Source: Candidatus Bathyarchaeia archaeon (GTDB lineage: Archaea > Thermoproteota > Bathyarchaeia > 40CM-2-53-6). Taken from it: 64,000 nt of DNA. The notes beneath the pieces are model-generated. The model did no database searches and was not told where the DNA came from. It saw only the letters and a program-made list of their open reading frames with translations. Each line of letters starts with the position of its first letter. The first letter of the stretch is position 1. The DNA lies in the NCBI GenBank assembly GCA_049513715.1, contig JBEKVV010000002.1:192001-256000 (forward strand). The letters are read 5' to 3'. The position numbers and the translations under genes are program-made. This document shows, piece by piece, positions 3,038 to 38,967 of this stretch.

Positions 3038-3178
3038 TGGCGCCGCCGGCAGGGTTCGAACCTGCGACCAACGGGTCACTGTGTTCTGGCAGCTTAACAG
3101 CTTCAGCCCCCACTGGCTTGGTAGGGTCCGCTGCTCTAACCACTGAGCTGGCGTCTACGCGGTTGCGTATACGGCGGC
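3038..3178 (-). tRNA. tRNA-Asn(GUU) with three BHB introns (8/9: 3170-3150; 30/31: 3127-3102; 37/38: 3094-3077)
   Basis: Removing 21+26+18 nt gives the 76-nt cloverleaf GCCGCCG-TA-GCTC-AGTGGTTA-GAGC-A-GCGGG-CTGTTAA-CCCGT-TGGTC-GCAGG-TTCGAAC-CCTGC-CGGCGGC-G-CCA, with encoded CCA and G73. Each insert forms a BHB-type motif. Confidence 0.92.
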
Positions 3179-3220
3179 TCGTGCCTTTCGGCGGCGTTCG
3201 AGCCATTTCCCTTTCAGCGC

Positions 3221-38767: not shown

Positions 38768-38775
38768 TTAAAATA
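38768..38775 (+). promoter_or_regulatory. Putative TATA box of tRNA-Glu
   Basis: TTAAAATA starting 32 nt upstream of the leader acceptor copy at 38800, flanked by the 7-bp inverted repeat GCACACG/CGTGTGC. Confidence 0.55.
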
Positions 38776-38816
38776 GCGTGTGCTCTCGATAGTCGGATTG
38801 CTCCGGGCAACTGTGG

Positions 38817-38967
38817 GCTCCGGTAGAAGCGTTCTGCTACCGAATATAGCCCGGTCAAGGCGATTAGTCGCCGAGAGTATGCTGGCCTCTCGAGCATGAC
38901 GGGGAGAGTCAGCGACGCGGGTTCAAAAGCGAGTGCTCAACCGCTGAAAATCCCGCCCGGAGCACCA
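38817..38967 (+). tRNA. tRNA-Glu(CUC) with four BHB introns (10/11: 38827-38844; 20b/21: 38858-38875; 37/38: 38893-38906; 59/60: 38928-38950)
   Basis: Removing 18+18+14+23 nt gives the 78-nt GCTCCGG-TA-GTAT-AGCCCGGTCAA-GTAT-G-CTGGC-CTCTCGA-GTCAG-CGAC-GCGGG-TTCAAAT-CCCGC-CCGGAGC-A-CCA, a typical archaeal tRNA-Glu with encoded CCA. Confidence 0.9.

What the first reader, a model, noticed from the sequence alone, without database searches (positions are those of the whole stretch)
38800..38855. Leader-encoded decoy acceptor strand on tRNA-Glu: candidate RNA refolding device for splicing introns next to the acceptor stem
Seen: GCTCCGG (38800-38806) is an exact copy of tRNA nt 1-7 (38817-38823), with period 17 and a 10-nt spacer GCAACTGTGG. 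The 10/11 intron's central BHB helix is C5G6G7U8 paired with intronic ACCG, so the real acceptor stem must be open during splicing. Spacer UGG plus G1C2U3 can pair with D-loop AGCCCG, supplying the outer helix. A TATA box starts 32 nt upstream of the copy, so the copy is probably transcribed. The same design with a different sequence occurs at tRNA-Asn (3195-3189). tRNA-Ile2, which has no intron 5' of the D-stem, has no such copy. Inference: the leader copy holds the 3' acceptor strand (CCGGAGC) while nt 1-8 form the splice motif; after ligation the true strand displaces it and RNase P removes the leader. I do not know of this being described. An alternative is an extra 17-nt intron in the acceptor stem, but I found no BHB geometry for any cut from 1/2 to 7/8.
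Basis: partly seen in the sequence, partly recalled or inferred. Interest (0 to 1): 0.92.

Follow-up and report, generated by a model that had tools for sequence, protein, structure and literature searches.

The report
Spare acceptor strand in tRNA leaders
In these uncultured soil archaea, every tRNA gene with an intron right next to the acceptor stem carries a second copy of the stem's first seven bases just upstream, most likely a stand-in pairing partner that lets the precursor fold for splicing.

Summary
GCTCCGG at 38800-38806 exactly copies nt 1-7 of a four-intron tRNA-Glu(CUC) gene (38817-38967), and tRNA-Asn has the same layout.

It is not chance. Of 41 tRNA genes I modelled in this genome, 4 of the 5 whose first intron lies at or before 10/11 have a second strand that can pair 7/7 with the 3' acceptor strand. 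The fifth has a 6/7 strand. None of the other 36 has a 7/7 strand.

In relatives, 101 of 101 intron-bearing orthologs (Glu, Asn, Cys, Trp) keep such a strand: 92 at 7/7 and 9 at 6/7. Of 26 intron-less orthologs, 19 have none. The spacer is unconserved and 3-24 nt long.

Variants of the copy are C-to-U changes (still G:U) or mismatches at positions 2 or 7, near the helix ends. The copy sits where a tRNA normally starts relative to the TATA box. Folding pairs it with the 3' strand in 86 of 88 precursors.

Excising spacer plus copy as a further intron has no splice motif in Glu, Asn or Leu.

It rests on computation only, and I found no description in print. A few intron-less genes keep the copy, and the Leu energy model shows no gain.

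The parts
38768..38775 (+). TATA-like box TTAAAATA of the tRNA-Glu gene
   Evidence: It ends 24 nt before the upstream copy. In tRNA genes without a copy, the AT-rich box ends 21-33 nt before tRNA nt 1.
38800..38806 (+). Upstream (leader) copy of acceptor nt 1-7, GCTCCGG; the proposed surrogate strand that pairs with CCGGAGC (38957-38963)
38807..38816 (+). Spacer, unconserved in sequence and length; its last bases plus nt 1-3 can pair with D-loop AGCCCG
38817..38967 (+). tRNA-Glu(CUC) gene with four introns and encoded CCA
38827..38844 (+). Intron 1 at 10/11 (18 nt); its BHB central helix uses tRNA nt 5-8
   Evidence: H 4/4, inner helix 4 bp, no outer helix.
38858..38875 (+). Intron 2 (18 nt) in the D-loop/D-stem region
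38893..38906 (+). Intron 3 (14 nt) at the canonical 37/38 position
38928..38950 (+). Intron 4 (23 nt) in the T-loop
38957..38963 (+). 3' acceptor strand CCGGAGC, partner of both copies
3189..3195 (-). Upstream copy GCCGCCG of the tRNA-Asn acceptor strand
3038..3178 (-). tRNA-Asn(GUU) gene with three introns; the first is at 8/9 (3170-3150), and its BHB uses nt 1-6 plus the last two spacer bases

Best explanation
The upstream heptamer is a functional part of the precursor tRNA: a surrogate, or decoy, 5' acceptor strand.

Introns at 8/9-10/11 are cut only when tRNA nt 3-8 (and nt 1-2 in Asn, Cys and Leu) pair with the 3' end of the intron and the start of the D arm to form the bulge-helix-bulge (BHB) motif. 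This excludes the normal 7-bp, G+C-rich acceptor stem, which would otherwise win the competition.

Transcription starts at about the upstream copy (inferred). The copy is free when the 3' acceptor strand is made, pairs with it (inferred), and so removes the competitor and stabilises the splicing-competent fold.

After EndA cleavage and ligation, nt 1-8 are released. The true strand, contiguous with U8 and the D arm, displaces the copy. RNase P then removes copy plus spacer, which makes the switch irreversible (inferred).

Shown here: the anatomy, the co-occurrence with the intron, the conservation pattern and the predicted folds. Not shown: any RNA species or any cleavage.
For: 1. Own genome. 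Of 41 modelled tRNA genes, 5 have their first intron at or before 10/11. Four of these have a second strand pairing 7/7 (Watson-Crick or G:U) with the 3' acceptor strand: Glu at -17, Asn at -17, Cys at -12, and Gly-CCC inside the intron. Leu-CAG has a 6/7 strand. None of the 36 others has a 7/7 strand (Fisher p 5e-5). A copy-first scan then found a tRNA-Trp-like gene with a copy at -25 and a 10/11 intron.

2. Orthologs (distinct loci).
- Intron-bearing: Glu 22 (20 at 7/7, 2 at 6/7), Asn 39 (36, 3), Cys 22 (22, 0), Trp 18 (14, 4). None scores 5 or fewer pairs.
- Intron-less: Glu 10 (8 with <=5 pairs), Asn 6 (4), Cys 4 (4), Trp 6 (3).
- Leu: all 15 intron-bearing orthologs have GCGGGGT, a 6/7 strand.
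- The Asn arrangement spans 10 families of the order and further families of the class.
- An unrelated tRNA in G479 shows the same design.

3. The spacer is unconserved, leaving 3-24 nt between the copies (offsets -10 to -31), while the heptamer is kept.

4. Variants of the copy fit a helix with the 3' strand. C-to-U changes give G:U (GCTCTGG, GTTCCGG, GGGGTCG). Mismatches occur only at position 7 or 2 (GCTCCGA, GCCGCCA, GGGGCCT, GCGGGGT, and GGCGCCG in L208). The strand next to U8 is always the perfect complement.

5. The AT-rich box ends 23-30 nt before the upstream strand, against 21-33 nt before nt 1 in ordinary tRNA genes.

6. Folding. The minimum-energy fold pairs the copy with the 3' strand in Glu, Asn, Cys and Leu. 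This holds in 86 of 88 BHB-constrained folds. Median cost of the BHB fold, in kcal/mol, for native / no leader / copy replaced by A7: Glu 2.0/5.5/5.1, Cys 6.9/12.8/12.5, Asn 7.0/13.0/9.3.

7. tRNAs with the first intron at 12/13 or later, whose central helix does not touch nt 1-7, have no copy.

8. RNase P RNA scores 188 bits, and there are two EndA-domain genes.
Against: - There is no transcript evidence of any kind. No RNA run was listed.
- A copy persists without the intron in Glu L018 and L019, in Leu L100 and in Asn L201, where it lies at -35.
- Three intron-less Trp genes have 6/7 strands.
- For Leu the modelled cost is the same with the copy as with A7 (6.3 against 6.4). For Asn most of the gain comes from the spacer rather than the copy.
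- The BHB fold still costs 2-7 kcal/mol in the model.
- Energies are computed for 37 C and ignore proteins.
- Orthologs are kin, not independent samples.
- My tRNA list is home-made and incomplete. It has 41 genes and lacks, among others, Phe, Tyr and His.
- The Trp gene was found through its copy.
- In Cys the two copies can themselves form a BHB-like hairpin through the CCGG palindrome, so a 12-nt excision is not excluded there.
Confidence: 0.6

Rival explanations
1. The copy does pair with the 3' acceptor strand in the precursor, but the purpose lies elsewhere. It might order the processing steps by blocking RNase P, CCA checking or aminoacylation until splicing is done. It might instead shield the 3' end from exonucleases.
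For: The same pairing evidence applies. The Leu model shows no gain for the BHB fold. Copies are kept in a few intron-less genes.
Against: This does not explain why only tRNAs whose BHB uses nt 1-8 carry the copy, while the 36 other intron-rich tRNAs do not. It also does not explain why the copy is absent where the intron is absent.
Confidence: 0.17
2. Spacer plus one copy is a further small intron in or next to the acceptor stem, so the mature 5' strand comes from the upstream copy.
For: In Cys, a cut after nt 7 of the upstream copy that removes 12 nt has a 4/4 central helix (CCGG:CCGG) and an outer helix of 4 pairs. Gly-CCC in this genome does seem to have an intron inside the acceptor stem. 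The copy sits where nt 1 normally lies relative to the promoter.
Against: No BHB fits an exact excision in Glu, Asn or Leu. In Glu the only 4/4 helix would replace U8-A9 by G-C. The upstream strand carries mismatches to the 3' strand in many genes (all 15 intron-bearing Leu, 4 Trp, 2 Glu, 3 Asn), while the downstream strand never does. The base after the upstream copy is not a conserved U. The exon between the two introns would be only 1-3 nt long.
Confidence: 0.08
3. The copy is a neutral by-product of how the intron arrived, for example a local duplication or a mobile cassette overwriting the 5' part of the gene, and it has no role in the RNA.
For: Earlier notes of this scan report cassettes that overwrite tRNA 5' ends and bring in introns in this genome (not tested here). 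In Leu the upstream element also copies the first intron bases, with two 1-nt indels.
Against: The heptamer is kept across an order and beyond, while the spacer and flanks are fully diverged. The arrangement arose with six different acceptor sequences. The changes seen are G:U-compatible or lie at positions 2 or 7, near the helix ends. Where the intron is absent the copy is absent, or looks partly changed in a few genes (L092, L236, L238, L239), which may be decay.
Confidence: 0.07
4. The copy acts on DNA, as an initiator or promoter-proximal element that had to be duplicated when a leader was inserted.
For: The copy lies at the predicted start site.
Against: Initiator elements (as I recall them) are not gene-specific heptamers. 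Here the sequence always equals the gene's own acceptor strand and tolerates exactly those changes that preserve RNA pairing.
Confidence: 0.03

Closest known systems
Complementary leader/trailer sequences of split tRNA genes (Nanoarchaeum equitans, Caldivirga maquilingensis); passages read in PMC4090602, PMC4033280 and PMC4390854
   Same: These are non-tRNA sequences in the precursor, removed during maturation, whose base pairing creates the fold that the splicing endonuclease needs.
   Different: There, the extra sequences pair with each other, form the BHB themselves and are cut by EndA. Here, the extra strand copies tRNA nt 1-7, pairs with the tRNA's own 3' acceptor strand, forms no bulges, and would be removed by RNase P.
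Leader-trailer BHB of circularly permuted tRNA genes (Cyanidioschyzon merolae; passages read in PMC4090602) and of archaeal rRNA processing stems (recalled)
   Same: Flanking sequence is recruited to build a processing structure.
   Different: Those helices carry the cleavage sites. The element here carries none and works, if at all, by competing for a strand.
Alternative-pairing switches such as anti-terminator/terminator hairpins of attenuators and riboswitches (recalled)
   Same: Two mutually exclusive partners exist for one strand, and the choice of partner decides the outcome.
   Different: Those control transcription or translation. Here the switch would serve splicing of a tRNA and be resolved by an irreversible RNase P cut.
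Multi-intron tRNA genes of Thermoproteales with non-canonical intron positions (recalled; mentioned in PMC4090602 and in bioRxiv 10.64898/2026.10.13.758758, passages only)
   Same: Small BHB introns lie at many positions, and EndA is of the two-gene (alpha-beta) kind.
   Different: In the passages and search listings I saw, I found no report of a leader copy of the acceptor strand tied to acceptor-proximal introns.

Membership tests
Archaeal BHB intron (is spacer plus one copy an intron?) | A 4-bp central helix between the 4 exon bases before the 5' bulge and the 4 intron bases before the 3' bulge, with two 3-nt bulges | tested here: not met
   For exact removal of the repeat unit, no cut position from -3 to +8 of the copy gives 4 pairs in Glu, Asn or Leu. 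In Glu the only 4/4 register (cut after spacer nt 2) would change nt 8-9. Cys is the exception: cut at 7/8, 4/4 pairs via the CCGG palindrome.
Archaeal BHB intron (the 10/11 intron of tRNA-Glu and the 8/9 introns of Asn, Cys and Leu) | Central helix of at least 3 of 4 pairs plus at least one flanking helix, with excision restoring a cloverleaf | tested here: met
   Glu H 4/4; Leu 4/4; Asn and Cys 3/4 with flanking helices. The mature sequences fold as cloverleaves in my model.
Split or permuted tRNA leader-trailer helix | Leader pairs with a trailer or second transcript and forms the BHB at the exon border | tested here: not met
   The copy pairs with nt 66-72 of the same tRNA as a plain 7-bp helix. 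The gene is contiguous and collinear.
tRNA fragment left at the border of an integrated element (att-site repeat) | A repeat of a longer tRNA segment that flanks a kb-scale insert with mobile-element genes | tested here: not met
   The repeat is 7 nt and the insert is 3-24 nt. It is conserved across families.
Ordinary RNase P-removed 5' leader | Transcribed sequence between the start site and nt 1, with RNase P present in the genome | tested here: inconclusive
   RNase P RNA found. Promoter spacing places the start at the copy. No RNA ends are available.
tRNA gene (Glu, anticodon CUC) | Cloverleaf with a 7-bp acceptor stem, D, anticodon and T arms, conserved U8, G18G19 and T-loop after intron removal | tested here: met
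   model. Orthologs are aligned. ARAGORN and the Rfam gathering threshold miss it because of the introns.

The most novel reading that the evidence does not exclude
This is a general rule of archaeal tRNA gene architecture. An intron can settle next to the acceptor stem only if the precursor carries a cis-encoded surrogate acceptor strand, in the leader or in the intron itself, that takes over the 3' strand. The element acts as a built-in RNA chaperone and enforces the order 'splice first, then RNase P'. It would be a previously unrecognised class of cis-acting RNA folding device. It would also explain where non-canonical introns can and cannot persist.
Probability: 0.4. Interest if true: 0.85.

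Novelty: new variant of a known kind. Interest (0 to 1): 0.8.

Why it matters
Why archaeal tRNA introns persist at some positions and not others, and how precursors whose splice motif conflicts with the cloverleaf get spliced at all, are open questions. A conserved, gene-specific stand-in strand gives a concrete and testable answer for acceptor-proximal introns. It predicts an order of processing steps. It offers a simple sequence signature that gene finders could use both to set correct 5' ends and to flag hidden introns. It also shows that tRNA leaders in these archaea are not junk.

Tried and rejected
- RNA evidence: the look-up of sequencing runs listed no RNA holder.
- tRNA finding: ARAGORN found 0 tRNAs in the window. 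Rfam found only Ile2 above threshold.
- The raw scan for X7..X7 repeats over all acceptor-like pairs was swamped by noise.
- The phylum-wide pattern scan for the Asn repeat was uninformative. The reversed-pattern control matched about as often in G+C-rich genomes.
- Folding controls that reversed or permuted the copy were flawed, because G+C-only heptamers still pair. The automatic intron choice also picked wrong introns for Cys and some others. Both were replaced by exon-motif-defined introns and an A7 control.
- Extra-intron geometry was tested for all cuts and rejected for Glu, Asn and Leu.
- A hairpin between the two copies through a palindromic tetramer exists in Glu, Cys and Gly-CCC but not in Asn or Leu, so it is not general.
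- Leader pairing with the D-loop is present in Glu and Leu but not in Asn or in L189, so it is not general either.
- A mirror-image device, a second 3' strand for introns near nt 66-72, gave no clear case.
- Literature: four searches and passages of five papers gave no description of such an element. Subscription papers and supplements were not seen.

Full report
**What is there.**
The window lies in an uncultured Bathyarchaeia genome. The name comes from earlier notes of this scan; I did not verify it. The genome has 2.79 Mb in 11 contigs.

At 38817-38967 there is a tRNA-Glu(CUC) gene with encoded CCA. It is cut by four small introns, after nt 10, in the D region, at 37/38 and in the T-loop. 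My intron-aware model placed all four, each with a 4/4 central helix. ARAGORN and the Rfam gathering threshold miss the gene.

TTAAAATA starts 32 nt before the copy. tRNA-Asn on the minus strand has GCCGCCG at 3195-3189, a 10-nt spacer and GCCGCCG at 3178-3172.

**Is it more than chance?**
I laid the genome and wrote a finder. It anchors on T arm, 3' acceptor strand and NCCA, finds 5' strands, and walks the cloverleaf while jumping over BHB (bulge-helix-bulge splice motif) candidates. With nine genes added by eye this gives 41 tRNA genes. The set is incomplete.

- Five genes have their first intron at or before 10/11: Glu-CUC, Asn, Cys, Leu-CAG and Gly-CCC.
- Four of the five have a second heptamer that can pair 7/7 (Watson-Crick or G:U) with the 3' acceptor strand. 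The positions are Glu -17, Asn -17, Cys -12, and Gly-CCC just inside the intron.
- Leu-CAG has GCGGGGT at -22, a 6/7 match.
- None of the other 36 has a 7/7 strand (Fisher p 5e-5). Matches of 6/7 are common by chance, occurring in 14 of the 36.
- A scan that started from the repeat then found one more gene. It is tRNA-Trp-like, with GGGGCCG at -25 and a 28-nt intron at 10/11. It was found through its copy, so I count it separately.

**Relatives.**
DNA searches of 40 relatives, plus 80 genomes of the class for Asn, gave orthologous loci. The counts below are over distinct loci that my scripts could parse. Unparsed loci are listed in those calls.

| tRNA | Intron-bearing loci | 7/7 | 6/7 | Intron-less loci | <=5 pairs | 6/7 | 7/7 |
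|---|---|---|---|---|---|---|---|
| Glu | 22 | 20 | 2 (GCTCCGA) | 10 | 8 | 1 (looks like chance) | 1 (L018) |
| Asn | 39 | 36 | 3 | 6 | 4 | 1 | 1 (L201, at -35) |
| Cys | 22 | 22 | 0 | 4 | 4 | 0 | 0 |
| Trp | 18 | 14 | 4 (GGGGCCT) | 6 | 3 | 3 | 0 |

- L019 (Glu) has N in its 3' part and was not parsed. It also lacks the intron and has GTTCCGG.
- Leu: all 15 intron-bearing loci have GCGGGGT. Of the two without the 8/9 intron, L100 keeps the strand and L092 has GCGGGAA.
- The Asn arrangement spans all ten families of the order sampled and further families of the class.
- A different tRNA in G479 (L207) shows GGGACCG-gaa-GGGACCG plus a 10/11 intron.
- Orthologs are kin, so these counts are not independent trials. 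The independent units are the six or seven tRNA families, each with its own heptamer.

**What kind of constraint?**
The spacer is free in sequence and length, leaving 3-24 nt between the copies (offsets -10 to -31), while the heptamer is kept.

The variants seen fall into two groups:
- C-to-U changes, which leave G:U pairs with the 3' strand: GCTCTGG, GTTCCGG, GGGGTCG.
- Mismatches at position 7 or 2: GCTCCGA, GCCGCCA, GGGGCCT, GCGGGGT, and GGCGCCG in L208.

No variant has a mismatch in the middle of the helix. The heptamer next to U8 is always the perfect complement. This pattern fits selection on an RNA helix with nt 66-72. It does not fit selection on sequence identity, and it does not fit an upstream strand that ends up in the mature tRNA.

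**Why these tRNAs?**
In each case the BHB of the first intron uses acceptor-stem bases:
- Glu: central helix nt 5-8.
- Asn, Cys, Leu: central helix nt 3-6 and outer helix nt 1-2. Asn also uses the last two spacer bases.

The normal acceptor stem and the splice motif therefore exclude each other. Genes whose first intron lies at 12/13 or later do not touch nt 1-7 with the central helix, and they have no copy.

**Is the copy transcribed?**
There are no RNA data. However, the AT-rich box ends 23-30 nt before the upstream strand. In ordinary tRNA genes of this genome it ends 21-33 nt before nt 1. The start site therefore probably lies at about the copy. This is an inference.

**Folding.**
With the leader, the minimum-energy fold pairs the copy with the 3' strand in Glu, Asn, Cys and Leu.

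Over 88 precursors with introns defined by exon motifs, the copy is paired (>=6 bp) with the 3' strand in 86 of the BHB-constrained folds. The median cost of the BHB fold, in kcal/mol at 37 C, is as follows:

| tRNA | n | Native | No leader | Copy replaced by A7 |
|---|---|---|---|---|
| Glu | 23 | 2.0 | 5.5 | 5.1 |
| Cys | 21 | 6.9 | 12.8 | 12.5 |
| Asn | 30 | 7.0 | 13.0 | 9.3 |
| Leu | 14 | 6.3 | 9.2 | 6.4 |

The model therefore supports a copy-specific gain for Glu and Cys, a partial gain for Asn and none for Leu. Earlier controls that reversed or permuted the copy were flawed.

**Rival: a further intron.**
- Exact excision of the repeat unit has no BHB in Glu, Asn or Leu.
- In Glu the only good register would put G-C at positions 8-9.
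- Cys has a good motif, but only because CCGG is a palindrome.
- The upstream strand carries mismatches that a mature acceptor stem should not have.
- The exon left between the two introns would be 1-3 nt.
- Gly-CCC is different. Its true GGCCG-U8 lies about 45 nt downstream and lacks nt 1-2 or 1-3, so it does have an intron within the acceptor stem. The best BHB in my hands is in the 8/9 register, yet several orthologs have A rather than U after the first strand. I leave that gene unresolved.

**Other rivals.**
A neutral relic, a promoter element, or pairing that serves another purpose are weighed in their own sections.

**Enzymes.**
A full-length archaeal RNase P RNA (188 bits) and two EndA-domain genes are present. 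The two-gene set-up, as I recall it, marks the broad-specificity alpha-beta enzyme.

**Known or new?**
Four full-text searches and passages of five papers describe leader-trailer pairing in split and permuted tRNAs. None describes a leader copy of the acceptor strand. I saw only listings and passages, and subscription literature was not covered.

**Verdict.**
A leader-encoded surrogate acceptor strand is the best-supported mechanism, at about 0.6. Direct RNA evidence is still needed.

Noticed in passing
window 38817-38967; also G000 C1, C2, C4, C5 (one search list): My model gives four BHB introns each to several tRNA genes of this genome: Glu-CUC, initiator Met, Pro-CGG, Pro-GGG, Lys-UUU, Gln-CUG and Leu-CAG. 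As I recall, three per gene is the most reported for Thermoproteales.
   Followed up: partly
G000:C1:573300-573600 (locus L053/L114), minus strand: tRNA-Gly(CCC): the first strand GCGG[TC][CT]G (both G:U variants pair with CGGCCGC) is followed about 45 nt later by an invariant GGCCG-T8. The intron register is ambiguous: 3/4 by conservation, 8/9 by BHB. In several orthologs the base after the first strand is A.
   Followed up: partly
L084-L100 (Leu-CAG leaders); L215-L230 (Trp leaders); window 38803-38808: The leaders hold further conserved complementarity to downstream parts of the precursor. In Leu, CCTGGC matches the D-loop GCCAGG. In Trp, CCCTGTC matches GACAGGG after the D arm. In Glu, CCGGGC matches the D-loop GCCCGG.
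   Followed up: no
G000:C1:372200-372510 (L214), minus strand: A 226-nt tRNA-Trp(CCA)-like gene with several introns. My first tRNA pass missed it.
   Followed up: partly
G000:C2, plus strand, 0-based 278841-278986: The tRNA-Val(UAC) gene has a 48-nt intron at about 65/66, flanked by a repeated CCGGTC. It is a possible 3'-side counterpart of the design studied here.
   Followed up: no
G000, many places (anchors without a 5' strand): Free-standing tRNA 3' ends (T arm + acceptor strand + CCA) occur with no 5' half nearby. This is in line with earlier notes of this scan on tRNA-derived attachment sites.
   Followed up: no
L236, L238, L239 (Trp), L092 (Leu): Intron-less orthologs carry an upstream heptamer with one or two changes (GGAGTCG, GGGGTTC, GGAGCCG, GCGGGAA). 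These may be decaying copies left after intron loss.
   Followed up: no
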